Positions 11,867 through 26,226 of a stretch of 64,000 bases of DNA are shown piece by piece. The stretch's first letter is position 1; each line of letters opens with the position of its first letter. The stretch is from NCBI GenBank assembly GCA_002694465.1, contig NZMG01000030.1:3488-67487 (forward strand), written 5' to 3'. The position numbers and the translations under genes were made by a program. Below the pieces are notes generated by a model, which had not been told where the DNA came from, searched no databases, and worked only from the letters and a program-made list of their open reading frames with translations. Origin of the DNA: Flavobacteriaceae bacterium. GTDB taxonomy: Bacteria; Bacteroidota; Bacteroidia; Flavobacteriales; Flavobacteriaceae.

Positions 11867-13612
11867 ATGAATTACGGGTTTACCGACTTTCTACAATTAT
11901 TTGGGTCTCTGGGTCTCTTCCTCTTCGGAATGAAAGTAATGAGCGACGCCCTTCTTAATTTGGCTGGCGATCGCATGCGAAAGATATTGGCAACCATGAC
12001 TTCCAATAAGTACATGGGTATTTTTACGGGGTTTTTAATTACTTCTGTTATACAGTCTTCCTCTGCGACAACCTTGATGGTTGTTAGTTTTTCTAACGCT
12101 TCATTGTTAACGCTTACAGAAGCAATAAGTGTTATTATGGGGGCCAATATTGGTACTACAATTACAGCTTGGTTAATAACAATTTTAGGGTTTAAAGTTA
12201 GTATGAGTGCTATTGCATTACCCTTAGTGGGTTTTGGTTTTGCTTTTACTTTCTCAAAAAAGCCTTCATTAAAAAATTGGGGTGCCTTTATAATTGGGTT
12301 TTCCATTTTATTTATAGGATTACAATTCTTAAAAGATGCTGTACCAGATATTAAAAGCAATCCTGAGATTTTAGCTTTTTTAACGAGCTACACAGATTTA
12401 GGCTTTTGGTCTATATTAATCTTTTTACTTATAGGAACATTATTAACTGTAATAATTCAGTCATCCAGTGCTACTATGGCACTAACGTTAATTATGACTG
12501 CACAAGGATGGATTTCATTCGAGTTGGCTGCTGCTATGGTTTTAGGGGAAAATATAGGAACAACCATTACGGCCAATCTAGCTGCAATAGTAGCAAACTT
12601 CCAAGCAAAGCGAACGGCAAGAGCGCACTTTTTATTTAATATTATTGGGGTAATTTGGGTATTGATTTTATTTTACCCATTCCTAAAATTAGTTACTTGG
12701 GTTTCAGAAAAAGCAGGCTCGGATTCTCCTTATCTTACTGCTGCTGCTATTCCTGTTGCAATTTCTTTGTTTCACACTATTTTCAATATCTGTAATACAT
12801 TTTTATTGATGTGGTTCATCAAGCCTATAGCAAAAATTGTGGAACGATTAGTGCCAGAAAAAGAAATTGTTGAGAAAGAAATGGATGAGCCTAAATTTCT
12901 TATGAATAGCGTTCTGGAATTTCCAGAAACATTAATTCATTCATTAAAAAATGAATCGAAATATTTGTTTGAAAATTCAATTCTTGAAATAGTTTCAAAA
13001 GCAATGAATATTATTTCAACAGATTTAAAATCTGAAACTAAAATTAAAAAGGTAGTAAAGAAGAATAAACAAGACTTAAAAACGGATGTAGATAATTTGT
13101 ATTACACCAAAGTAAAAAATATTTATGGGAAGATTATTGAGTATGCAACAAAGGGGCAGAGTAGTTTAAAACTTACCCAAAAGCAAACCAAAGAAATTTC
13201 GGAAGTTAAATTAGCCAATAGAGTTATGGTAGAGATAGTTAAAAATTGTGTTGGGCTAAATAAGAATGTTACTAAGTACTTTAATTCTGAAAATGAATTT
13301 GTTAAAAAAGAATACTATAAATACCGAAAAAAAATCGCTAAAGTTATAAGAGTAATTTATCTATTCGCTGAGCAAGATGAGAAAGATAAATATTATTTAA
13401 AATTAAGAAAGCTAAAACAAGAAGCAGAACAGGAATACCATCATTCTAATGAATCTATTAATAGTTTAATACGTCAAAATCTCATTAGTGTTTCCATGGC
13501 TTCTTCTTTAATTAATGATAATGATACTGTTAATGATATTATTAAGAAACTCATCATCGTAGCAGAGTTGTTATTTACTACTAAAGATAGTTTATTAGAA
13601 AATGGAACATAA
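11867..13612 (+). CDS. Na/Pi cotransporter family protein (NptA-like) with PhoU-like C-terminal region
   Basis: Two QSSSAT repeats, GANIGTT and GENIGTT motifs, soluble helical C-terminus. Confidence 0.93.
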   Translation: MNYGFTDFLQLFGSLGLFLFGMKVMSDALLNLAGDRMRKILATMTSNKYMGIFTGFLITSVIQSSSATTLMVVSFSNASLLTLTEAISVIMGANIGTTITAWLITILGFKVSMSAIALPLVGFGFAFTFSKKPSLKNWGAFIIGFSILFIGLQFLKDAVPDIKSNPEILAFLTSYTDLGFWSILIFLLIGTLLTVIIQSSSATMALTLIMTAQGWISFELAAAMVLGENIGTTITANLAAIVANFQAKRTARAHFLFNIIGVIWVLILFYPFLKLVTWVSEKAGSDSPYLTAAAIPVAISLFHTIFNICNTFLLMWFIKPIAKIVERLVPEKEIVEKEMDEPKFLMNSVLEFPETLIHSLKNESKYLFENSILEIVSKAMNIISTDLKSETKIKKVVKKNKQDLKTDVDNLYYTKVKNIYGKIIEYATKGQSSLKLTQKQTKEISEVKLANRVMVEIVKNCVGLNKNVTKYFNSENEFVKKEYYKYRKKIAKVIRVIYLFAEQDEKDKYYLKLRKLKQEAEQEYHHSNESINSLIRQNLISVSMASSLINDNDTVNDIIKKLIIVAELLFTTKDSLLENGT

Positions 13613-13657: not shown

Positions 13658-15901
13658 TTAATTCTTTTTATAACTATTGTAATACTCTTCCATTAAGTGG
13701 ATAAGAGCTGTCACAAGATCTTTAGTTTCCATTAATAAATTGAAATAAAGTGTGGTATTCTTTGGACTAGACTCTTCCGTTCTAGTTCTTTGAATTTGCT
13801 TCTCAATTTTTGCTGAGATATCTGCATAAGCCTTTTCTTTTCGGTCTAAAATACCTTCAAGTCTTTCAAAATCCTTGGTATCAAAAATATTTACAATATC
13901 CATTAGTAGGTGCTCGAATGAAGCATTTATTTCTTGAAGATCTTTAATTTGATTAAATTTTAGGGCCTTGTGATTATTGTTAACATGCTTGTAACTCTTT
14001 TTTGTTATGTATTCTAAGGACTGAGCCACATCGGTTAAATATCCAAGTATAATGATATAGAAGTTACTACCTCTTACACTTGTATCATCAAGATTTTTAA
14101 TAAAATAGAATATGTTATTTCTTAAATCTTCAATTTCATTATCGAGTTTTTCAACCCCCTTCTTTGTCTTTTTAAGTTTCTTTTCATCTTGCTTTGCAAG
14201 ACCTTTAATTACCTCTGTATAAATCTTATTTGTTCTGGAAACAACATTTGAAATGTTATTTGCACTTTCAGAAATAATTCCTTGTACCGTTTTACTTTCA
14301 GACTTTTTTAAACCAGTTTTGTCTAGTTTTTCTATTCCTTTTCTTTTATGTGACAAATAATTTCTTATTAATAATGCTAATGCGACTAATAATAGGATAG
14401 CAATAGCAGGTCCTCTTCCTATATAAATGATATAGGTTAAGGTTCCCGCGGCTAAAAAAGCACTGAATGCTGTAAAAAACCAGCCTCCAATGACGTTTAG
14501 TACTCCTGCTACTCGATATACCGCACTTTCACGCCCCCAAGCTCTATCTGCCAATGAGGTACCCATAGCTACCATAAAAGTTACATAGGTAGTGGAAAGA
14601 GGTAACTTCATTGAAGTGGCAATGGCAATAAGAATACCAGCTACCGTTAGGTTTATAGAAGCACGAATCAAATCAAATGCAGGTATTTCGTGAGCTTTAC
14701 CAGCTGGAATTTTTACCTCTGGTTTTTCGAAACTTTTCGCAATTTTATCTTGTGTTGACTGAGGTATAGCACCCCCTAATAATGAAGCTAATTTTGTACT
14801 TCCTTTAACAACAGCACGAGATAAGATGTTAGGATTAAATTTTTCTGCCCCGTCACCTTGTCTAGAGAGTCCTATTTCTGTTTCGGTAACAGTTCTTGCT
14901 TTTTTGGAAAACCAAAGTGTTAATACCATTATAGCACCAGAGACAAATAGTAAAAGAGGTTCTGCAGGGACTTTTTCTTCAAGAACATTCATTGAAAATG
15001 CATTCGCCGCTTCTCCAGAGACAGACCAAGCTTCATAACTATGGTATGCAGCCATAGGAACACCAATAAAGTTAACTAAATCGTTTCCAGAAAACGCTAA
15101 TGCTAACCCAAATGTCCCAATTGCTATTACTACCAATAGGATGCTTTTTTTAAATATTTTAGTAAATAATATTGAAAAGGCAGTCCAAAAAAGAAACCCA
15201 ATTCCTATTACTATCCAAAAATTTGTAGCTAGAATTTCTTTAAAAGCACTATAATTTGGAGCTCCTTTAAGTCCTTTAAAAAAGATAAAATAGCTAATTG
15301 CGGTTAGGGTTAAACCCCCAAAAATGGCCCCAAAATTCTTCATTTTTTGTTCGTAATGAAACGAAAATACAAGCCTAGATAACCATTGAACCAGTGCTCC
15401 TAGGGTAAAAGCAATTACTACTGAAAGTAAAATACCTGTGATAATTTCTATTGCCTTTTCAGAATTTATATAATTTCCTATATCAGCCATCGTTTCCGAA
15501 GAGGACGCGCCAATTTTTATAAGCGCCATTACTACAGTAGCACCTAGTAAAGAAAAAACTATGGATACTGTAGTGGAAGTGGGCATTCCTAGTGTATTGA
15601 AGAAATCTAGTAATAAAATATCCGTAATCATTACGGCTAAAAATATTATCATAATTTCATCAAAATAGAATTCTCCAGGGATAAAAATCCCTTTACGAGC
15701 AACTTCCATCATCCCACTGGAATAAACGGCTCCAATAAAAATTCCTAAACTCGCAACAATCATAATGGTACGGTAAGGAATAGCTTTAGAACCAATTGCA
15801 GAATTTAGAAAGTTTACAGCATCATTACTAACACCAACAACTAAATCAACAATAGCTAAAACCGCTAAAGCTACAAGCATTAAAATGTAAATATTATCCA
15901 T
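13658..15901 (-). CDS. PiT/PHO4 family inorganic phosphate transporter with PhoU-like C-terminal domain
   Basis: GVSNDAVNFLNSAIGS, GMPTSTTVSIV, GNDLVNFIGVP, LPLSTTYV signature motifs. Confidence 0.93.
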   Translation of the reverse strand: MDNIYILMLVALAVLAIVDLVVGVSNDAVNFLNSAIGSKAIPYRTIMIVASLGIFIGAVYSSGMMEVARKGIFIPGEFYFDEIMIIFLAVMITDILLLDFFNTLGMPTSTTVSIVFSLLGATVVMALIKIGASSSETMADIGNYINSEKAIEIITGILLSVVIAFTLGALVQWLSRLVFSFHYEQKMKNFGAIFGGLTLTAISYFIFFKGLKGAPNYSAFKEILATNFWIVIGIGFLFWTAFSILFTKIFKKSILLVVIAIGTFGLALAFSGNDLVNFIGVPMAAYHSYEAWSVSGEAANAFSMNVLEEKVPAEPLLLFVSGAIMVLTLWFSKKARTVTETEIGLSRQGDGAEKFNPNILSRAVVKGSTKLASLLGGAIPQSTQDKIAKSFEKPEVKIPAGKAHEIPAFDLIRASINLTVAGILIAIATSMKLPLSTTYVTFMVAMGTSLADRAWGRESAVYRVAGVLNVIGGWFFTAFSAFLAAGTLTYIIYIGRGPAIAILLLVALALLIRNYLSHKRKGIEKLDKTGLKKSESKTVQGIISESANNISNVVSRTNKIYTEVIKGLAKQDEKKLKKTKKGVEKLDNEIEDLRNNIFYFIKNLDDTSVRGSNFYIIILGYLTDVAQSLEYITKKSYKHVNNNHKALKFNQIKDLQEINASFEHLLMDIVNIFDTKDFERLEGILDRKEKAYADISAKIEKQIQRTRTEESSPKNTTLYFNLLMETKDLVTALIHLMEEYYNSYKKN

Positions 15902-15921: not shown

Positions 15922-15966
15922 GCAAAATTCTTAATTAATTTATGATTACCTGTTATCAAATTGTTA
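15922..15966 (-). promoter_or_regulatory. PiT promoter with Pho-box-like TAACA direct repeats
   Basis: Plus-strand TGTTA at 15951 and 15962 (11-bp spacing), 29 and 40 nt from GCAAA (the -7 TTTGC) at 15922. Confidence 0.6.
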
Positions 15967-15973
15967 CGTTTTA

Positions 15974-17176
15974 TTAAAAATGCAGGTCAAAACCTATTCT
16001 AAATTCAATGCTATCTGCATCACCTTCTAACGTAGTATAACTAACATCAGATTGAACTTTAAGTTTGTGGCCTACAATATACTTAGAAACACCTAAAGTA
16101 TACTGTTCTTCACCTAGTCTACTAGTAATGTTATTATAATCTGTATTAGTAAACCTTCCTGCAATTTCATAATTATTTTTAAATAAATAACCAGCTTGTA
16201 AATTTAATGCATTACCTACTAATACAATATCTCCAGTTTCGGTTCCGTCTGCTTCGATGGCTACAGGGTTTTCGGCATCTCTATTAGCATATTCTCCCAT
16301 AAATGAAAAACCTTTGTATTTAAACATGGTATCAATAAACAAAGTGGTAATATCGGTTTCGTATAAAGAGCCATCTTCCAAAAACATATAGGAACCTAAA
16401 TTACTTCTTGTTTTTACAGCATCTTGATTTAAATCGTAAGTTACTCCTATCATTAATTTTGGTGAAGCCTCTCTAGCTAAATCTGCTTGAAAATAATCTC
16501 CATTGGATTTAAATAATCCAAATGGAAGGAACTCTAATCTACCGGTATATTGTAACCCACCTTCATTTCCTTCGGTGATATTTCTTCCTTCTCCCTGTGA
16601 AATAGCAACTTTTTCACGAATTATAAAATCTCCGCCCAAATTTGCGTGATGACGTAATTGCATTCCTATATCGCGGTCAATATTGAAGCGGCTGTTTAGT
16701 AAGGATCGGTCTATTAATTGCATATTTGCTGAAGAAACAACACGTTCTACGTTTCCTGGCAATTTTGTTTGCCCTACCCATAATTCGAAATTTTCATAAA
16801 AATTCCACATAATTACCGCATCCAATATATATCTAGGCGTATTTCGGTTAAATTCATTTGCTCCTGATATGTCTCTATTAGAAAGACCTAATTCAATTTT
16901 ATATTCAAGTTTAGGTGAGTATGCCCATCCATCAAATTTTAAACGAGCACGTCTTATTAAAAAATTATGCTCTGGGCTATTATAATTATTACCATTATAA
17001 TCCCAGTTCGTTTCAGAACGAAATTGAATCCTTGGAGCAAATTTGATACTAAAAGTACTATCTTTTGCAGTGTAATTAATGATTCCTTTTCCAAATGAAG
17101 TGTCACTAATTTCTTGAGCTTCAATAGTAAGTGTGGAAAATAAAATTGCCAAAATGGCAAACTTTAAAAGTTTCAT
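15974..17176 (-). CDS. Phosphate-selective porin (OprO/OprP family)
   Basis: Signal peptide, FLIRRARLKFDG, VGQTKLPGNVERVVSS, C-terminal DLHF; context among Pi transporters. Start reassigned to MKLLKF (17176). Confidence 0.85.
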   Translation of the reverse strand: MKLLKFAILAILFSTLTIEAQEISDTSFGKGIINYTAKDSTFSIKFAPRIQFRSETNWDYNGNNYNSPEHNFLIRRARLKFDGWAYSPKLEYKIELGLSNRDISGANEFNRNTPRYILDAVIMWNFYENFELWVGQTKLPGNVERVVSSANMQLIDRSLLNSRFNIDRDIGMQLRHHANLGGDFIIREKVAISQGEGRNITEGNEGGLQYTGRLEFLPFGLFKSNGDYFQADLAREASPKLMIGVTYDLNQDAVKTRSNLGSYMFLEDGSLYETDITTLFIDTMFKYKGFSFMGEYANRDAENPVAIEADGTETGDIVLVGNALNLQAGYLFKNNYEIAGRFTNTDYNNITSRLGEEQYTLGVSKYIVGHKLKVQSDVSYTTLEGDADSIEFRIGFDLHF

Positions 17177-17202
17177 GTAAATCGTTTTAAGTTTTTGTCG
17201 GT

Positions 17203-17247
17203 GCAAAGAACTTAAACCAATGTTAACTGAATGTTACCTATAAGTTA
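17203..17247 (-). promoter_or_regulatory. Porin promoter with four phased Pho-box-like half-sites
   Basis: Plus-strand ACTTA 17210, TGTTA 17221, TGTTA 17232, AGTTA 17243 (all 11 bp apart), at offsets 7/18/29/40 from GCAAA at 17203. Confidence 0.65.
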
Positions 17248-17265
17248 TTTTTAAAAATATTATAC

Positions 17266-17291
17266 AAAAAGGGTCGCCCATTGGGCGACCC
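17266..17291 (-). terminator. Terminator of the candidate phosphate-island sRNA
   Basis: Perfect 9-bp GC-rich stem gggtcgccc-att-gggcgaccc, with a T run only on the minus strand. Confidence 0.85.
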
Positions 17292-17355
17292 CACACATTG
17301 ATAAAATCTAGTCGACAAAAACTTAACGATTTATATGTGTATGTGTATTAAACAC
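17266..17355 (-). ncRNA. Candidate ~90-nt antisense sRNA of the phosphate island
   Basis: Own terminator, TTTATTTG -7-like element at 17368-17361, 5' hairpin GUGU-UUAAU-ACAC, and a 25-nt stretch complementary to the porin and Na/Pi symporter 5' UTRs. Confidence 0.7.
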
Positions 17356-17478
17356 AAAAACAAATAAAGGCCATCTGTATAGCTAAATCGTCATCTAAAT
17401 ATTAAATAAATATTAAGTTTTCTCTTTAATGCTGAAAAGGCATATATAGCACTGAAAATCAGTTTAATAATAATTCAA

Positions 17479-17533
17479 TGTTAATTTAATGTTATGCAAA
17501 CCTTTATTAATTGTTACCAATTTTGTAAATTTG
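17479..17533 (+). promoter_or_regulatory. Promoter of the 17.5-kb gene overlapped by TGTTA repeats
   Basis: Exact -7 TAAATTTG at 17526-17533; TGTTA at 17479, 17490 and 17512 (11 and 22 bp spacing). Confidence 0.55.
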
Positions 17534-17552: not shown

Positions 17553-17921
17553 ATGTTTATCATGAGAAAATTATTAGTAGTATTTACTATTTCTCTTTTA
17601 GCAGGGTCGGCTTTTTCACAAGAAAAAGTACAAGATGAATTTGTTAAAGAAGGAAAAGTGATTAAAGCTACGCTTTACCATGAAAATGGAATGGTAGCTC
17701 AAACTGGTTTTTACACATTGGATAATAAACTAGAGGGTGAATGGATAAGTTATGATGCAGTAGGAAATAAAACTGCTGTAGCTCACTACAACAAGGGAAA
17801 CAAAGTTGGTACATGGTATTTTTACCAAGGTAATGAGATTAAGGAGGTAAATTACTCCAATTCTAAAGTTGCCAAAGTGACTTCTTTTAAGATTACAGAT
17901 GCTGTTGTGATATCCAACTAA
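17553..17921 (+). CDS. Secreted MORN-variant repeat protein (YwqK-like)
   Basis: Signal peptide (start may be 17562); repeats YHENGMVAQTGFY, LEGEWISYDAVGNK, KVGTWYFY. Confidence 0.75.
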   Translation: MFIMRKLLVVFTISLLAGSAFSQEKVQDEFVKEGKVIKATLYHENGMVAQTGFYTLDNKLEGEWISYDAVGNKTAVAHYNKGNKVGTWYFYQGNEIKEVNYSNSKVAKVTSFKITDAVVISN

Positions 17922-20692: not shown

Positions 20693-21892
20693 TTAGTTAC
20701 GAGTCCAACCCGCTTTCCAATTGTCATAATCTGCACCAGTTCCATTTCCATCACCAGAAATAAAATCTGCTTCAGTAAAGGTAAACTCAGTGTCATTTTT
20801 CATTTTAAGGATAACATCTGTAAAGGTGACGTTGGTAACACTTAAGTTGCCATTTAGAACACCCTGTCCAGTTGGATTATCTGCCATATCACCGTCAAGG
20901 TCAAAACCTTCTTCAAATCCTTGGATGACCATGTTAGTAAAAATACCTTGCGTACCAGCTCTTAGACGTACCGCTTCGTTTTCTGTGGCAGAACCTCTGC
21001 CAACTATTGTTACGTTGTTTACACTTGGTTTTGAAAAAAATAATGGGCTTGAGTTATTTCCGATATCGGTATTAAAACCATCGGCTTCAATTCCTTTGTC
21101 GTGAGAAACGCCGTGCTCAATATAAACATTAGTTAAAGTGCCAGTAAACCCTTCGGTCCAATCTACAGAATCATCTTGACATCCTATTACAGAAATATAA
21201 CTTGCATTTACAGTACCCCCGAAGAATTCTATACCATCATCTTTCCCTTCAAAAGCTTGGATATATTCTACAGTAGTTCCATTTCCAACTCCATAGAAAG
21301 AAAAACCGTTGTTTTCTGAAGACGCGTCAGCAGCACCACCAGAATACTCTACACGAACATATTTTATCACTCCTGAGTTATCACTTGCATCACTTCCTCC
21401 GTAAGGTAAACCTCCAATTTCTGAGGAAGAAGTAGCATCGCCACCTACGACAGAGTTAATGGGTGCTTTTCCCAGGATAATTAATCCTCCCCAATCACCA
21501 GCGTTTGGAGTAGCTTCGTTAGAAGTTAGCACAATGGGTTGAGACGAAGTACCTTCAGCCATAATTTTAGCACCTTGAGCAATAGCGATATATACGCCCG
21601 CTCCATTATTAGCTTTAATAATCGTTCCAGCTGGAATTGTTAGGGTAGTTCCGTTAGTCATGATTAATGCTTCTGTAAGCACATAATCTTTGTCTGCCTC
21701 CAAAGTAAAATCTTCAGTTTTTGTACCACCAATTTCTACTAGGTTACTAGTATCTGTACCACCAGAACCACCTTCGTTGTTTATGGTCGTGCTATTGTCT
21801 GTAATTACAATATCGGCAGTATCATCTGCTTGACAAGAAGCAAAAAGCAATGCGACAGTAGCAAGACTTAAAAAAAAATAATTAGTTTTCAT
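20693..21892 (-). CDS. Surface lipoprotein with predicted beta-helix-like repeats, co-transcribed with the TBDR
   Basis: Lipobox LLFAS-C, Gly/Ser linker, TLTIPAGTIIKA, GDWGGLIILG, YVRVEYSG, DDGIEFFGGT, DDSVDWTEG. Confidence 0.8.
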   Translation of the reverse strand: MKTNYFFLSLATVALLFASCQADDTADIVITDNSTTINNEGGSGGTDTSNLVEIGGTKTEDFTLEADKDYVLTEALIMTNGTTLTIPAGTIIKANNGAGVYIAIAQGAKIMAEGTSSQPIVLTSNEATPNAGDWGGLIILGKAPINSVVGGDATSSSEIGGLPYGGSDASDNSGVIKYVRVEYSGGAADASSENNGFSFYGVGNGTTVEYIQAFEGKDDGIEFFGGTVNASYISVIGCQDDSVDWTEGFTGTLTNVYIEHGVSHDKGIEADGFNTDIGNNSSPLFFSKPSVNNVTIVGRGSATENEAVRLRAGTQGIFTNMVIQGFEEGFDLDGDMADNPTGQGVLNGNLSVTNVTFTDVILKMKNDTEFTFTEADFISGDGNGTGADYDNWKAGWTRN

Positions 21893-21928
21893 TTGTTTAC
21901 GTATTAATTAAATTATTGTTTTCGGTTA

Positions 21929-24736
21929 TTAAAATTTGTATTTAAGTTGTAATGATAGATTTATTCCTTTCTTGTAAGAAGCAATTCCTTTTCCGTTTGG
22001 AGAGGTGACAAAAATGTCTCCTGTAGCGGTTTCTCTTATATATTCAATACTTGGGTCAAGTAAGTTAAATGCACTTGCGTTTACTTCTAAATTATCTCCT
22101 ATTTTGTTTTTGAAAACAAGATTTAGTGTGGGTACGCCTTTTTCAATAATATTTCCTAATTGTCCAGATCCTATTGCATCAATTCTATCACTGAAGTATG
22201 AAAATACTGCATTAAGAGTAGGTTTATAATTACCAAAAGTTGGACTATAGTTAATATCTGCATTTACAATTATGGGTGCTGCACCCTGAAGTTCTTCAGT
22301 TCTACCTTCTTCAAAAGTAGTGGTGAAAACTCCTTCTGAGCTTTTTAAATCTTGCTTGGTATATGTATAGGTAGCATTGAATCCAGCAGAGAGCTGCGCC
22401 TCTTGATTTTCATCTACTAAAATATTTTTTCTCACTTCAAGTTCAGCTCCAACCACCTCTGCCTTATCTCCTGTTCTAAAATAACGTTGTGTTCCAGTTG
22501 CGTCATTTGCAATCACTCGGTTAATAGGGTCATTAATTTGTTTTCCAAAAGCAGCAATTGAAAGCAATTCGCTTCTTCCAAAAAACCATTCGTATTTTAA
22601 ATCTACATTATAGATTTTTGAAAAAGAAGGGTCCGATAATAAGTCTTGGTTCCCTCCAACACGGTTAGAAACATCTTCATACACAAAGGGAGCTACTTCC
22701 TTAAACTCAGGGATAGAAACTGTTTGACTTGCAGAAAAACGTAAGTTTTGTTCATCGTTTAATGCATATCTTAAATTAAGACTTGGTAAGTAGAAATTTT
22801 CATACGATTTTCTAAAACCTGGATCGGTTTCGGTTAAGTTAATAACATCATATTTTATTGATTGGGTTAGAGACTCTGCTCTAAATCCAGGAACGATCAA
22901 AAATTTATCCCCTAAAGCAATTTCTGTATTAATATAGGCAGCGTGTACGTCTAGATTTCCAGTATAAGTGTTTTCGTTTAAACCTGGATAGTTAGTATTG
23001 TCGATTCCTCCTTCTGGGTAAATTGGGTTGAAAACAAAAGTGTTGTAAACAATCCCAAGGTTTTCTAAAGTAAATACATTATTGAAGTTGTTGACATCCA
23101 AAGCTGGAGTATTGGGCTCAATGATTTCGTAACCATAACGAATATTGTCGAAATAGCGCTCCTTGGTTCTTCCGTTGTATCCAAAGTTGAATTTTAGTTT
23201 TTCAGAAGCAGTATATTCTAAGTTAATACGACTATTTAATTCTTCATCTTCGATATTTTGAAAATAACGTTGATTATCGAAATTAATATTATTGAAAAAA
23301 GAAGGGTTTGTTGCTTCATCTGCGTCTAAGGCTAAATCATAGCGCTCAAGGGTAATACGTTTTCTGTCGGGTTGGCGAGCAAATACTTTATTGTAACCAA
23401 CACCCCAATCGACTTTAAATTTTTCATCGATTGAATGCGAACCAATAAGCTGGTTTACAAAAATCATATCTTGCTCAAATTGAACGTTCATTTGATAAAA
23501 CCCTTTATCGGTATCCAAAATAGCATCTCTGTTTCTTCCCCCACCATCAATACCAAAGTATCCAACTTCATCTGTGGCATCATTCACAAAAAGAGAGTTG
23601 AAACTTACCTTATGGTCACTATTGATTTTGTAAACCAAATTCATCATTCCGGTAGTGTTAGTACCATACTCATATTCCTGAGCCTTTGGAAAACTTTTCT
23701 TTTCCACAGTACTAAAATCTGTAGCTTCCCCTTCTCGATATTCAAAATTATTACTGAAAGACCCTGTAAAGAATAAGCTTAATCGAGAATCATTTTTAAA
23801 CTTAAAAGTAGTTCCTCCAGAAATAGCAGCACTTAAAGCAATAGGCTCATAGGCTGCTACTGGATCAACTCCGTGTGATAAAACAACTGCAAATGGGTTG
23901 TTGTCATAGCGGTTATAATATCCAAAAAAGCTTGTTCCTTCACTTTTTACAAAAGCTTTCCCAGAGGCTGTAGTGTTTATTCCTGAGCCTACCTGTACAT
24001 CGATATAAAACTTTCCAGCGTAATCTTTTGAAGTGATGTTTACGTTTCCTGCAGCAAAATCTCCATAAAATTGAGCGTCGTATGCTTTACTTACGGCAAC
24101 ATTTTGAATAATATCTGATGAGAATAGAGAAAGATTGATATTTTTTCTTTCAATATCATTTGATGGGAGAGATAAGTTGTTGTAAGTAGTATTTTGATAG
24201 CGATCTCCAAGACCCCTTACATACACATTTCCACCACCTTCTTGTTTTGAAACTCCAGAGATTTTAGCAACCGCTCCAGCGGCATCATTTACTCCTTTTC
24301 TAGATAATTCTTCTGCTCCAATACTTTGTTTAATGGTTGTAGCATTTTTTTGTTCAAGGAGTAAAGCAACTTCACTTTCTCTTTTGGTAGTTGTTTTAAT
24401 AACTACTTCATCTAATGTTGCAGCACTGGCCCCCATTGGGACATTTATGGTGGTTACCTTATTTGCTTCTATGACTACATTATTTATATCTACTGTTTCA
24501 TACCCTACAAAACTATAGGATACAGTATAAGTACCTACTTTCAAATTTTCCAATCTATATAAACCGTCAATGTCCGAGGTTGTTCCTGTTGTAGTGCCTT
24601 TAATGATTATATTTGCAAAAGGTAGCGGTTCGTTACTATATTCTTTGTCGGTTAATTTTCCAACCAAAGTACCTGTCTCTTGTGCAAAAGTTGAAGCTGT
24701 AAAAACTAAAACTAGAATTGTAAAAAGTTTCTTCAT
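21929..24736 (-). CDS. TonB-dependent receptor (N-terminal carboxypeptidase-regulatory-like domain, plug, barrel)
   Basis: EPLPFANIIIKGT, LDEVVI TonB-box-like segment, YVRGLGDRYQNT plug motif, C-terminal YKF. Start probably MKKLFT (24736). Confidence 0.92.
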   Translation of the reverse strand: MKKLFTILVLVFTASTFAQETGTLVGKLTDKEYSNEPLPFANIIIKGTTTGTTSDIDGLYRLENLKVGTYTVSYSFVGYETVDINNVVIEANKVTTINVPMGASAATLDEVVIKTTTKRESEVALLLEQKNATTIKQSIGAEELSRKGVNDAAGAVAKISGVSKQEGGGNVYVRGLGDRYQNTTYNNLSLPSNDIERKNINLSLFSSDIIQNVAVSKAYDAQFYGDFAAGNVNITSKDYAGKFYIDVQVGSGINTTASGKAFVKSEGTSFFGYYNRYDNNPFAVVLSHGVDPVAAYEPIALSAAISGGTTFKFKNDSRLSLFFTGSFSNNFEYREGEATDFSTVEKKSFPKAQEYEYGTNTTGMMNLVYKINSDHKVSFNSLFVNDATDEVGYFGIDGGGRNRDAILDTDKGFYQMNVQFEQDMIFVNQLIGSHSIDEKFKVDWGVGYNKVFARQPDRKRITLERYDLALDADEATNPSFFNNINFDNQRYFQNIEDEELNSRINLEYTASEKLKFNFGYNGRTKERYFDNIRYGYEIIEPNTPALDVNNFNNVFTLENLGIVYNTFVFNPIYPEGGIDNTNYPGLNENTYTGNLDVHAAYINTEIALGDKFLIVPGFRAESLTQSIKYDVINLTETDPGFRKSYENFYLPSLNLRYALNDEQNLRFSASQTVSIPEFKEVAPFVYEDVSNRVGGNQDLLSDPSFSKIYNVDLKYEWFFGRSELLSIAAFGKQINDPINRVIANDATGTQRYFRTGDKAEVVGAELEVRKNILVDENQEAQLSAGFNATYTYTKQDLKSSEGVFTTTFEEGRTEELQGAAPIIVNADINYSPTFGNYKPTLNAVFSYFSDRIDAIGSGQLGNIIEKGVPTLNLVFKNKIGDNLEVNASAFNLLDPSIEYIRETATGDIFVTSPNGKGIASYKKGINLSLQLKYKF

Positions 24737-24757: not shown

Positions 24758-24835
24758 GCAAAGATGACCCTGTTATGTAAAGTTGATGTTAATCTAAAAT
24801 TATGATTAAGTCATTTCAAGGTTATCTAAATGTTA
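24758..24835 (-). promoter_or_regulatory. TBDR promoter with six 11-bp-phased half-sites
   Basis: Plus-strand TGTAA 24776, TGTTA 24787, AATTA 24798, AGTCA 24809, GGTTA 24820, TGTTA 24831, at offsets 18-73 from GCAAA at 24758. Confidence 0.6.
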
Positions 24836-24894
24836 AATAGTTAACCTTAAAAAAATGATTGAATTAAGTATCTTGCATCTTCAATATTTTAAGT

Positions 24895-26226
24895 ATGATG
24901 CAATGGGAAAAACTCCTTTCTTTAAAAAGACAAGGAGATACCAATAAACGATTACGAATAGAACAAGACGAAACTCGATTGGGTTTTGAAGTAGATTATG
25001 ACAGAATTATTTTTTCTTCAGCATTTAGAAGTCTCCAAGATAAAACACAAGTAATTCCCCTATCAAAAACTTCGTTTGTTCATACTCGTTTAACACATAG
25101 TTTAGAGGTTTCTGTAGTTGGGCGTTCTTTGGGAAGAGCTGTTGGAAAAGCGATTTTAGAAAAGCACCCATTTTTGGAAAAAACCCATGGGTATCGTTTT
25201 AATGATTTTGGAGCTATAGTAGCGGCAGCATCCTTGGCGCACGATATAGGAAACCCACCCTTTGGTCATTCTGGGGAAAAAGCAATTGGCAATTATTTTT
25301 TAAACGGAAATGGAAGCAGATTCAAAAAAGAATTAACAGATAAGCAATTTCAAGATTTAGTGGATTTTGAAGGGAATGCAAATGGCTTCAAAATTTTAAC
25401 TGAAACTAAAGATGGAGTTGAAGGTGGGTTACGCCTATCTTATGCAACTCTTGGTGCTTTTATGAAATACCCAAAAGAATCACTCCCCAAAAAACCAACC
25501 ACGCATATAGCCGATAAAAAGTATGGTGTTTTCCAGAGTGAAATTTCCTTTTTTAATGAAGTTGCCGATGAGTTAGGATTAATAAAAAAACTAGACAATA
25601 GATATAGTAGGCATCCCTTAACCTATCTGGTTGAAGCGGCAGATGATATTTGCTACACACTAATTGATTTTGAAGACGGAATAAATTTAGGATTAATTGA
25701 AGAAGAATTCGCTTTAGAATATCTAGTAAATCTTGTAAAAGATACAATTCAGAAAAAGAAATATACTAAGTTAACCCAGGCTTCAGATAGGCTTGCTTAT
25801 TTGCGATCATTAGCAATAAACACTTTAATTGAAGAAGCTGTTTCAGTATTTATTAATAATGAAGAAAAAATTTTAAATGGAGAATTTGGTAATTCTCTTT
25901 TAGACCACTGTAAATACACTCCACAAATAGAGGATATTATTAAAGTGAGCGTTGAAAAAGTTTATAAAAGTCAGGAAGTTATTGAAAAAGAGATTGCAGG
26001 GTATAAAATACTAACAACACTTTTGGATGGGTATACCCAAGCTATTGAAAGAAAACAAAATAACCAGCTTAGACATTACGATAAGCTACTACTCTCTGCT
26101 TCGCAACTAAATATGGACACTAAAGATAGTACTTATAATTATCTCATGACTTGTTGCAATTATATTTCAAAGCTTACAGATGGTAATGCATTATTACTTT
26201 TCCAAAAGATGAATGGAAAAATATAA
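24895..26226 (+). CDS. dgt: dGTP triphosphohydrolase (HD family)
   Basis: FRSLQDKTQV, HTRLTHSLEV, LAHDIGNPPFGHSGE, FEGNAN, EAADDICY. Confidence 0.93.
   Translation: MMQWEKLLSLKRQGDTNKRLRIEQDETRLGFEVDYDRIIFSSAFRSLQDKTQVIPLSKTSFVHTRLTHSLEVSVVGRSLGRAVGKAILEKHPFLEKTHGYRFNDFGAIVAAASLAHDIGNPPFGHSGEKAIGNYFLNGNGSRFKKELTDKQFQDLVDFEGNANGFKILTETKDGVEGGLRLSYATLGAFMKYPKESLPKKPTTHIADKKYGVFQSEISFFNEVADELGLIKKLDNRYSRHPLTYLVEAADDICYTLIDFEDGINLGLIEEEFALEYLVNLVKDTIQKKKYTKLTQASDRLAYLRSLAINTLIEEAVSVFINNEEKILNGEFGNSLLDHCKYTPQIEDIIKVSVEKVYKSQEVIEKEIAGYKILTTLLDGYTQAIERKQNNQLRHYDKLLLSASQLNMDTKDSTYNYLMTCCNYISKLTDGNALLLFQKMNGKI

What the first reader, a model, noticed from the sequence alone, without database searches (positions are those of the whole stretch)
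15922..17415. Shared Pho-box-like promoter architecture: TAACA half-sites at fixed 11-bp phase from the -7 element
Seen: aligning the PiT (GCAAA at 15922), porin (17203), TBDR (24758) and sRNA (ACAAA at 17360) promoters on the -7 TTTG puts TGTTA-like half-sites at identical offsets of 29 and/or 40 nt, with extras at 18 and 51. All four -7 elements deviate from TAnnTTTG, and the boxes occupy the -33 region, as expected for activator-dependent promoters. Established: PhoB/OmpR-family regulators bind 11-bp direct repeats (E. coli Pho box core CTGTCA). Inference: this is the binding motif of the Flavobacteriaceae phosphate-starvation regulator, which is encoded outside this window.
Basis: partly seen in the sequence, partly recalled or inferred. 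Interest (0 to 1): 0.72.

Follow-up and report, generated by a model that had tools for sequence, protein, structure and literature searches.

The report
Flavobacteriaceae Pho-box promoter architecture
Short TAACA repeats, one DNA turn apart and at fixed distances from weak promoters of phosphate-uptake genes, are kept across some 30 genera of this bacterial family. They are most likely the docking sites of its PhoB-like phosphate regulator, a lineage-specific version of a well-known kind of switch.

Summary
On the minus strand, TAACA-type half-sites 11 bp apart sit at fixed distances from a degenerate -7 TTTG:
- PiT: 29/40 nt.
- OprP-like porin: 18/29/40 nt.
- TonB receptor: 18/29/62/73 nt.

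The small-RNA promoter in this window has only weak look-alikes (TAATA, TGACG).

The same offsets recur in about 30 genera, and also at the moxR promoter. Applying the same procedure to 1121 promoters of this genome finds only porin, TonB receptor and moxR. PiT was not tested there, because its upstream spacer is too short.

Four results link the motif to phosphate and to a PhoB-like response regulator:
- pstS, where present, usually follows the porin, and some pstS genes carry boxes of their own.
- The best PhoB candidate, on another contig, has a conserved reverse-oriented box pair upstream.
- In many genera that regulator gene is the divergent neighbour of the TonB receptor, as in the F. 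johnsoniae PhoBR cluster.
- Riemerella PhoP DAP-seq gave the motif TTTAACA and binding at the phoPR, moxR and TonB-receptor promoters.

Binding and phosphate response were not tested here. The fixed-phase architecture is new detail on a known kind of operator.

Seen in passing: a conserved ~94-nt small RNA whose seed pairs, with covariation, to the porin 5'UTR.

The parts
15951..15966 (-). PiT promoter box pair TAACAatttgaTAACA, at 40 and 29 nt from the -7 TTTG
   Evidence: The 29 and 40 sites are each kept in 19 of 27 genera.
15923..15930 (-). PiT -7 element GAATTTTG, which lacks the T of TAnnTTTG; the ATG is 25 nt downstream of the start of TTTG
   Evidence: Relatives have GA(a/t)ATTTGCA.
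13658..15901 (-). PHO4/PiT-family phosphate transporter, 747 aa
   Evidence: Pfam PF01384, E = 8.8e-29.
15974..17176 (-). Phosphate-selective porin O/P family protein, 400 aa
   Evidence: Pfam PF07396, E = 7.1e-11. An orthologue is present in 76 of 121 genera.
17221..17247 (-). Porin promoter array TAACTtataggTAACAttcagtTAACA, at 40, 29 and 18 nt from TTTG
   Evidence: The 18 site is kept in 23 of 28 genera and the 29 site in 24 of 28. This is the top PWM hit in the whole genome.
17204..17211 (-). Porin -7 element GTTCTTTG
   Evidence: Relatives have GTT(c/a)TTTGCA.
17180..17200 (-). Porin 5'UTR segment CGACAAAAACTTAAAACGATT, complementary to the small-RNA seed
17263..17356 (-). Conserved small RNA of about 94 nt: a 5' hairpin, the invariant seed GTTTTTGTCGAC (17311-17322), then an intrinsic terminator (17292-17270) with a T-run
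   Evidence: The seed is present in 27 of 29 porin loci. The terminator has 6 pairs with compensatory changes. The terminator scan finds it. There is no Rfam family.
17361..17415 (-). Small-RNA promoter: -7 TTTATTTG plus the weak look-alike half-sites TAATA (51), TAATA (40) and TGACG (29)
   Evidence: Relatives have xTTACA at 29 nt in 11 of 23 loci, and a conserved TTAATAnTTAnTTAATATT.
17479..17516 (+). Reverse-oriented boxes TGTTAatttaaTGTTA plus TGTTA, at 51, 40 and 18 nt from the canonical -7 TAAATTTG (17526-17533) of the divergent 122-aa gene
   Evidence: In relatives the 51 site occurs 12 times, the 40 site 11 times and the 18 site 7 times among the 16 loci that have a TAnnTTTG anchor.
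17553..17921 (+). Conserved divergent gene for a 122-aa secreted protein with no family match
   Evidence: tblastn finds it next to the small RNA and porin in 23 of 30 genera. No Pfam or NCBIfam hit.
24776..24791 (-). TonB-receptor proximal pair TAACAtcaactTTACA, at 29 and 18 nt from TTTG (24762-24759)
   Evidence: The 29 site is kept in 26 of 28 genera and the 18 site in 21 of 28.
24820..24835 (-). TonB-receptor distal pair TAACAtttagaTAACC, at 73 and 62 nt, in helical phase with the proximal pair
   Evidence: The 73 site is kept in 24 of 28 genera and the 62 site in 19 of 28.
20693..24736 (-). TonB-dependent receptor (935 aa) followed by a 399-aa protein of unknown family
   Evidence: Pfam Plug, TonB_dep_Rec and CarbopepD_reg_2 domains. 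The receptor is the divergent neighbour of the PhoB-like regulator gene in many genera.

Best explanation
These are operator sites (a lineage-specific 'Pho box') for the PhoB/PhoP-like OmpR-family response regulator of Flavobacteriaceae. In this genome that regulator is encoded at C25:8351-9034 next to a PhoR-like kinase.

Proposed mechanism:
- The phosphorylated regulator binds head-to-tail to direct repeats with the consensus (T/a)AACAtt-N4-T(A/t)ACAtt, spaced 11 bp (one helical turn).
- At the activated promoters the repeats lie on the coding strand at rigid distances from a -7 element that lacks its TA and has no -33 TTG. PiT and moxR have them at 29/40 nt. Porin, the TonB receptor and some pstS genes have them at 18/29 nt. 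The TonB receptor has a further in-phase pair at 62/73 nt.
- The bound dimer therefore occupies the -33 region and recruits RNA polymerase, in the way PhoB does at E. coli Pho boxes and PhoP does at B. subtilis TT(A/T/C)ACA repeats.
- Reverse-oriented pairs upstream of promoters with a good -7 (the regulator operon itself and the divergent 122-aa gene) probably mediate autoregulation or repression.

Shown here: the sequence architecture, its conservation and specificity, and the gene associations.
Inferred: which protein binds, the direction of regulation, the transcription start sites, and the response to phosphate.
For: (1) In-window geometry is exact.

(2) Phylogenetic footprint across one genome per genus:
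- Porin: offset 18 in 23 of 28 and offset 29 in 24 of 28.
- PiT: offsets 29 and 40, each in 19 of 27.
- TonB receptor: offsets 18/29/62/73 in 21/26/19/24 of 28.
- moxR: offsets 29 and 40 in 26 of 30.
- The flanks diverge.

(3) Specificity: the same procedure on 1121 promoters of this genome finds in-phase pairs only at porin, the TonB receptor and moxR. The strict pattern upstream of a gene is found only at porin and PiT.

(4) Phosphate link:
- The genes are a PiT transporter and an OprO/P-type porin.
- pstS occurs in 10 of 121 genera. In six of the eight above the family cut-off it lies immediately downstream of the porin orthologue.
- Two pstS promoters (G079, G005) have the exact 18/29 pair.

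(5) Regulator link:
- The C25 regulator is the best PhoB match of the OmpR-family regulators scanned: TIGR02154 scores 218.7 bits against 158, 150 and 132 for three others.
- It is present in 118 of 121 genera.
- 23 of 30 genera have a box pair 85-100 nt upstream of its ATG.
- It is the divergent neighbour of the TonB receptor in many genera. That matches the F. johnsoniae OprP-PhoR-PhoB-Tbdt cluster, in which the Tbdt is induced by phosphate depletion (log2 fold change 8.0; PMC8115612).

[quoted passage not shown] EMSA showed binding at the phoPR, moxR, TonB-receptor and outer-membrane beta-barrel promoters (PMC9603813).
Against: - No binding or expression data exist for this organism.
- The regulator scores below the curated PhoB cut-offs: 218.7 against 296.2, and 200.6 against 270.
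- In F. johnsoniae the OprP gene was not induced by phosphate depletion (log2 fold change -1.3, not significant).
- The Na/Pi cotransporter in the window has no boxes.
- PhoX-like genes of the family show no consistent boxes.
- moxR is one of the best-conserved targets, so the regulon is broader than phosphate.
- A second, RprY-like regulator operon (C27) also has a GTTAA direct repeat upstream. Related regulators may therefore share similar sites.
- Orthology with Riemerella PhoP was inferred from shared targets and conservation, not tested by sequence.
- In other families of the order, moxR promoters lack the strict architecture.
Confidence: 0.78

Rival explanations
1. The repeats are bound by a different OmpR-family regulator, for example one of the two RprY-like regulators, or by several regulators with overlapping specificity. 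They would then respond to an envelope or redox signal, not to phosphate.
For: - The genome has five proteins with an OmpR-type DNA-binding domain.
- The C27 kinase-regulator operon has TGTTAAcatttGGTTAA 42 nt upstream.
- moxR, of the aerotolerance operon, is a top conserved target.
- The Riemerella authors linked the motif to ArcA-like redox control. They found 583 peaks, which suggests relaxed specificity.
Against: - Boxes at the PiT, OprP-type porin and pstS promoters point to phosphate.
- Synteny and the shared intergenic region tie the TonB-receptor boxes to the PhoB-like regulator, not to the RprY-like ones.
- The DAP-seq protein is the PhoR-paired regulator, and that operon is up-regulated on phosphate starvation (PMC9603813).
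Confidence: 0.12
2. The regulator represses, and does not activate, the PiT, porin and TonB-receptor promoters by sitting on the -33 region. Alternatively, the TTTG elements are not the real -7 elements and the boxes lie elsewhere relative to the true start sites.
For: - Transcription start sites are not mapped.
- In Riemerella, pstS was 8-fold higher in the phoPR deletion mutant, and many PhoP targets were up-regulated in the mutant.
- F. johnsoniae OprP was not induced by low phosphate.
Against: - The -7 elements lack TA and no -33 TTG is present, which is typical of activator-dependent promoters.
- The TTTG-to-ATG distance is conserved at about 25-32 nt.
- The orthologous F. johnsoniae Tbdt next to phoB is strongly induced.
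- Promoters with reverse-oriented boxes have canonical -7 elements. This fits a split between activated and repressed classes.
Confidence: 0.08
3. The pattern is chance, or a compositional feature of AT-rich intergenic DNA, with no function.
For: - Exact TAACA-N6-TAACA is not enriched genome-wide over other spacings.
- One-mismatch matches in the window are at chance level: 15 against 10.5 expected.
Against: Conservation at identical offsets in about 30 genera at five promoters, against 3 of 1121 control promoters.
Confidence: 0.01

Closest known systems
Riemerella anatipestifer PhoP binding motif (DAP-seq and EMSA; PMC9603813)
   Same: - Same order (Flavobacteriales).
- A PhoR-paired OmpR-family regulator that is conserved across the group.
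- Core motif TTTAACA, ArcA-like.
- Binds its own operon, moxR, a TonB-dependent receptor and outer-membrane beta-barrel genes. Here moxR, a TonB receptor and the regulator operon carry the boxes.
   Different: - That paper, in the passages I read, reports no 11-bp phasing, no fixed distance to the -7 element, and no PiT or porin targets. It frames the regulon as virulence and aerotolerance.
- Sequence orthology to the C25 regulator was not tested here.
- Outside Flavobacteriaceae, the moxR promoters lack the strict 29/40 geometry.
Bacillus subtilis PhoP boxes: TT(A/T/C)ACA repeats at 11-bp periodicity, on the coding strand of activated promoters and the non-coding strand of repressed ones (from my own knowledge of the Hulett laboratory's work)
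   Same: - The half-site is nearly identical. TTAACA, TTTACA and TTCACA are all seen here.
- 11-bp periodicity and multiple in-phase repeats.
- The split in orientation matches: boxes on the coding strand go with weak promoters, and reverse-oriented boxes go with promoters that have a good -7.
   Different: - A different phylum and a different sigma-factor promoter grammar (-33/-7 instead of -35/-10).
- The resemblance is recalled from memory and was not tested with B. subtilis sequences.
E. coli Pho box: CTGTCAT-A(A/T)A(A/T)-CTGTCA(C/T), two 11-bp direct repeats replacing the -35 (PMC9306846; details from my own knowledge)
   Same: - Two 11-bp direct repeats (7 + 4).
- They overlap the upstream promoter element of phosphate-transport genes.
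- The regulator gene is autoregulated.
   Different: - The core is TGTTA, not TGTCA.
- Orientation relative to transcription is opposite: here the coding strand reads TAACA.
   Same: The same half-site and 11-bp phasing in front of phosphate-scavenging genes in another Bacteroidota family.
   Different: - A different family and a different gene set.
- It is an unchecked AI note. I used it only as a pointer to PMC9603813.

Membership tests
Pho box (operator of a PhoB/PhoP-type response regulator) | Direct repeats with about 11-bp periodicity | tested here: met
   Pairs are exactly 11 bp apart and arrays are in phase at 18/29/40/62/73 nt. The PWM from 91 sites in relatives reads (T/a)AACAtt-N4-T(A/t)ACAtt.
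Pho box (operator of a PhoB/PhoP-type response regulator) | Located at promoters of phosphate-acquisition genes, including pstS | tested here: met
   Found at the PiT and OprO/P-type porin promoters. pstS promoters in G079 and G005 have the exact 18/29 pair, and others have partial boxes. The Na/Pi cotransporter and PhoX-like genes lack boxes.
Pho box (operator of a PhoB/PhoP-type response regulator) | Overlaps or replaces the upstream promoter element of a promoter with weak core elements | tested here: inconclusive
   The -7 octamers lack TA, and the boxes, not a -33 TTG, fill that region.
Pho box (operator of a PhoB/PhoP-type response regulator) | A site upstream of the regulator's own operon (autoregulation) | tested here: met
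   This genome has three half-sites upstream of C25:8351. A reverse-oriented pair occurs in 23 of 30 genera.
Pho box (operator of a PhoB/PhoP-type response regulator) | Bound by the phosphorylated regulator | not testable with these tools
   Indirect only: Riemerella PhoP DAP-seq and EMSA (PMC9603813).
Pho box (operator of a PhoB/PhoP-type response regulator) | Target genes induced by phosphate starvation | not testable with these tools
   Literature only. The F. johnsoniae Tbdt next to phoB is induced, and OprP is not (PMC8115612).
PhoB equivalog (NCBIfam TIGR02154 / NF053854), for the regulator at C25 | HMM score above the curated cut-off | tested here: not met
   The scores are 218.7 against a cut-off of 296.2, and 200.6 against 270. 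It is still the top-scoring PhoB match among the regulators scanned. The partner kinase's top hits are the phosphate-regulon kinases PnpS (243.7 bits) and PhoR (228.6 bits), with WalK (230.2 bits) between them. All are below their cut-offs.
Known RNA family, for the small RNA | Match to an Rfam covariance model | tested here: not met
   Only chance-level hits, all far below the gathering scores.

The most novel reading that the evidence does not exclude
The boxes are one half of a family-wide, hard-wired phosphate-uptake module.

- A PhoB-like regulator reads rigidly phased TAACA arrays. Two activation geometries (18/29 and 29/40 nt) exist, plus a reverse-oriented geometry at promoters with a good -7.
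- A previously undescribed, conserved ~94-nt small RNA sits between the boxes of the divergent 122-aa gene and the porin promoter.
- Its invariant seed pairs with the A-rich leader of the porin mRNA, and in one genus with that of pstS. This would give post-transcriptional control over the same genes, that is, a mixed transcriptional and small-RNA circuit in a phylum where few trans-acting small RNAs are understood.
Probability: 0.45. Interest if true: 0.68.

Novelty: new member of a known kind. Interest (0 to 1): 0.45.

Why it matters
Marine Flavobacteriaceae are major recyclers of organic matter. Most of them lack the Pst system: only 10 of 121 genera sampled here have pstS.

A defined operator with rigid geometry lets the Pho regulon of any genome in the family be predicted from sequence. 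In this genome that gives PiT, an OprP-like porin, a TonB receptor with a 399-aa partner, moxR and the regulator itself.

It also explains why these promoters deviate from the Bacteroidota -33/-7 consensus. And it yields clean reporter and mutagenesis targets for studying how an OmpR-family activator works with the unusual Bacteroidota sigma factor.

The motif itself is not new, because Riemerella DAP-seq found it. The value lies in the promoter grammar, the phosphate-transport targets and the associated small RNA.

Tried and rejected
1. Genome-wide count of exact TGTTA-N6-TGTTA at all spacings. There is no enrichment at 11 once coding DNA is included. Only the intergenic subset and the looser GTTA core show a peak.

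2. A PWM seeded on the seven intergenic exact hits. Apart from the sites in the window, most top hits lay next to genes with no obvious phosphate link: dnaA, parA, a peptidase and an MscS channel. I replaced it with a PWM built from orthologous promoters.

3. PhoX-like genes as an independent marker of the Pho regulon. There are few true PhoX genes and no consistent boxes. One locus has a 29/40 pair, and five genera share a TAACT-N6-TAACC pair close to the ATG. The test is inconclusive.

4. The Na/Pi cotransporter promoter in the window has no boxes.

5. moxR promoters in 16 other families of the order. Box-like pairs occur in some, at 10- or 11-bp spacing, but none has the strict 29/40 geometry.

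6. Rfam search for the small RNA found nothing.

7. Other targets of the small RNA in this genome. One weak candidate leader lies at C6:7645, in front of an unknown gene.

9. The library searches I ran found no paper describing a Pho box for Bacteroidota.
Full report
**What is in the window**

The finding lies in a phosphate-uptake gene cluster (Pfam; NCBIfam):
- Na/Pi cotransporter, 11867-13612 (+).
- PHO4/PiT-family transporter, 13658-15901 (-).
- Phosphate-selective porin O/P family protein, 15974-17176 (-).
- A 122-aa secreted protein with no family match, 17553-17921 (+).
- SulP and a beta-carbonic anhydrase (+).
- A 399-aa protein with no family match, 20693-21892 (-).
- A TonB-dependent receptor, 21929-24736 (-).
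- A dGTP triphosphohydrolase, 24895-26226 (+).

The window is C30:3488-67487 of a 3.24-Mb genome with 36% G+C.

**The observation**

I read the minus strand and confirmed positions with pattern searches. Half-sites sit at these distances from the first T of a TTTG element:
- PiT: TAACA at 40 and 29 nt.
- Porin: TAACT at 40 nt, TAACA at 29 nt and TAACA at 18 nt.
- TonB receptor: TAACA at 73, TAACC at 62, TAACA at 29 and TTACA at 18 nt.

All offsets differ by multiples of 11. The -7 octamers (GAATTTTG, GTTCTTTG, CATCTTTG) lack the TA of the Bacteroidota TAnnTTTG consensus, and no -33 TTG is present.

It is a weak case.

Exact TAACA-N6-TAACA occurs three times in the window against 0.29 expected.

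**Is it more than chance?**

Genome-wide, the exact pair shows no excess at 11-bp spacing once coding DNA is included. In intergenic DNA the GTTA core does peak at 11: 51 hits against about 25.

The decisive evidence is comparative. I used one genome per genus of the family and collected the orthologous promoters. I then measured half-site offsets from the TTTG nearest the start codon.

| Promoter | Offset (nt) | Genera with a half-site |
|---|---|---|
| Porin | 18 | 23 of 28 |
| Porin | 29 | 24 of 28 |
| PiT | 29 | 19 of 27 |
| PiT | 40 | 19 of 27 |
| TonB receptor | 18 | 21 of 28 |
| TonB receptor | 29 | 26 of 28 |
| TonB receptor | 62 | 19 of 28 |
| TonB receptor | 73 | 24 of 28 |
| moxR | 29 | 26 of 30 |
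| moxR | 40 | 26 of 30 |

The porin, PiT and TonB-receptor counts are and the moxR counts. Almost nothing occurs at other offsets, and the flanking sequence diverges freely.

My procedure picks the TTTG that gives the most in-phase sites, which biases it towards the pattern. I therefore ran the identical procedure on all 1121 promoters of this genome that have at least 100 nt of upstream spacer. Only porin, the TonB receptor and moxR have an in-phase pair. PiT was excluded there by its short spacer. A strict regular expression for the whole architecture, when required to lie upstream of a gene, finds only porin and PiT in the genome.

A PWM built from 91 sites in relatives reads (T/a)AACAtt-N4-T(A/t)ACAtt, with a nearly invariant C. 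Its two best hits in this genome are both in this window. The sites were pre-selected by a regular expression, so the information content of the core positions is inflated.

**Link to phosphate**

- pstS is present in only 10 of 121 genera.
- In six of the eight with a hit above the family cut-off, it lies immediately downstream of the porin orthologue (coordinates).
- Where pstS has its own promoter, TAACA-type sites are present. Two of five promoters (G079, G005) have the exact 18/29 pair with TTTG. One has only the 18 site. Two have a pair at another distance.

**Link to the regulator**

- The genome has five proteins with an OmpR-type DNA-binding domain.
- The one at C25:8351-9034 scores best against the PhoB models: TIGR02154 gives 218.7 bits, against 158, 150 and 132 for three others. 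It stays below the curated cut-offs.
- It is paired with a PhoR-like kinase.
- It is present in 118 of 121 genera at 55-85% identity.
- Upstream of it this genome has three half-sites 11 bp apart. 23 of 30 genera have a pair 85-100 nt before the ATG, in the opposite orientation.
- In many genera (for example G115, G114, G027, G091, G042, G098) this regulator gene and the TonB-receptor orthologue are divergent neighbours that share one intergenic region.

That arrangement matches the F. johnsoniae OprP-PhoR-PhoB-Tbdt cluster. There the Tbdt and adjacent lipoproteins are strongly induced by phosphate depletion, although OprP itself is not (PMC8115612).

**Experimental anchor**

There the PhoR-paired regulator PhoP was studied by DAP-seq. 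[quoted passage not shown] EMSA confirmed binding at the phoPR, moxR, TonB-dependent-receptor and outer-membrane beta-barrel promoters (PMC9603813). The two-component system is reported as conserved across the group and up-regulated on phosphate starvation.

The moxR result above therefore ties the Flavobacteriaceae architecture to a regulator with measured binding. I did not test sequence orthology directly.

In 16 other families of the order, moxR promoters show box-like pairs only sporadically, and none has the 29/40 geometry. The rigid architecture therefore appears to be specific to this family.

**Mechanism proposed**

The phosphorylated regulator binds the direct repeats head-to-tail on one face of the helix. 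At 18/29 nt (porin, TonB receptor, some pstS) or 29/40 nt (PiT, moxR) it occupies the position of the missing -33 element and recruits polymerase to a promoter with a crippled -7.

A second class has the repeats in reverse orientation upstream of good -7 elements:
- The divergent 122-aa gene has boxes at 51/40/18 nt from TAAATTTG. This gene is conserved beside the small RNA and porin in 23 of 30 genera.
- The regulator operon has a pair about 46-49 nt from TATCTTTA.

By analogy with B. subtilis PhoP, from my own knowledge, this orientation may mean repression or modulation. All of this is inference from sequence.

**Seen in passing: a small RNA**

Between the 122-aa gene's boxes and the porin promoter lies a conserved small RNA of about 94 nt (17356 to 17263, minus strand).
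- It has a 5' hairpin, an invariant seed GTTTTTGTC(G/A)AC, and a terminator. The terminator has six pairs with compensatory changes.
- The seed is present in 27 of 29 porin loci.
- There is no Rfam match.
- The seed region is the reverse complement of the porin leader (CGACAAAAACTTAA here, 8-17 nt before the ATG in most relatives).
- The positions flanking the invariant core covary between lineages: TTAAG/CTTAA, ATTAG/CTAAT and TACAG/CTGTA.
- 117 paired cells were observed, against 96.9 +/- 3.7 when RNA and leader were paired across genomes. None of 2000 permutations reached the observed value.
- The pstS leader of G079 carries the same target.

This suggests post-transcriptional control of the same uptake genes. 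The direction of that control is unknown.

**Verdict**

The interpretation as the site of the family's PhoB-like regulator is well supported by comparative and published data, but it is not proven for this organism.

The motif is already known from Riemerella, and the kind of element is classical. What is new is the promoter grammar, the phosphate-transport targets and the linked small RNA.

Noticed in passing
window 17263-17356 (-), target 17180-17200 (-): A conserved small RNA of about 94 nt lies upstream of the porin. It has a 5' hairpin, the invariant seed GTTTTTGTCGAC and a terminator. The seed is complementary to the porin 5'UTR, and the positions flanking the invariant core covary across genera (0 of 2000 permutations reach the observed pairing). 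There is no Rfam family, and no paper on it turned up in the held library.
   Followed up: partly
window 17553-17921 (+): A 122-aa secreted protein with no Pfam or NCBIfam match is divergently linked to the small RNA and porin in 23 of 30 genera. Its promoter has reverse-oriented TGTTA boxes at 51/40/18 nt from a canonical -7.
   Followed up: partly
G000 C8:8209-9213 (outside the window) and L129-L158: The moxR (Bat/aerotolerance operon) promoter carries TAACC-N6-TAACA at 40/29 nt from TTTGC in 26 of 30 genera. It is one of the best-conserved targets of the motif, so the regulon reaches beyond phosphate uptake.
   Followed up: yes
G048, G081, G079, G010, G029, G065: Only 10 of 121 sampled genera of the family have pstS. 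In six of the eight above the family cut-off it lies directly downstream of the OprP-like porin orthologue, taking the place that PiT holds in this genome.
   Followed up: partly
window 17395-17415 (-) and relatives: The sequence TTAATAnTTAnTTAATATT, that is TAATA-N6-TAATA at 11-bp spacing, is highly conserved 40-60 nt upstream of the small-RNA -7. It might be a C-less variant of the box or the site of another factor.
   Followed up: no
G000 C27:22059 (outside the window): An RprY-like kinase-regulator operon has TGTTAAcatttGGTTAA 42 nt upstream. This could be cross-regulation, or a paralogous regulator with a similar site.
   Followed up: no
G000 C30:156028 (outside the window): The third-best PWM hit in the genome, AAACAtttccTTAACA, lies about 30 nt upstream of TTCGCA. 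It sits in front of a 230-aa secreted protein of unknown function.
   Followed up: no
window 24820-24894 (+ strand reading): The distal TonB-receptor pair reads GGTTAtctaaaTGTTA on the plus strand. It lies about 42 nt upstream of a TATCTTG element of the divergent dGTP triphosphohydrolase gene, an arrangement like the one at the regulator operon.
   Followed up: no
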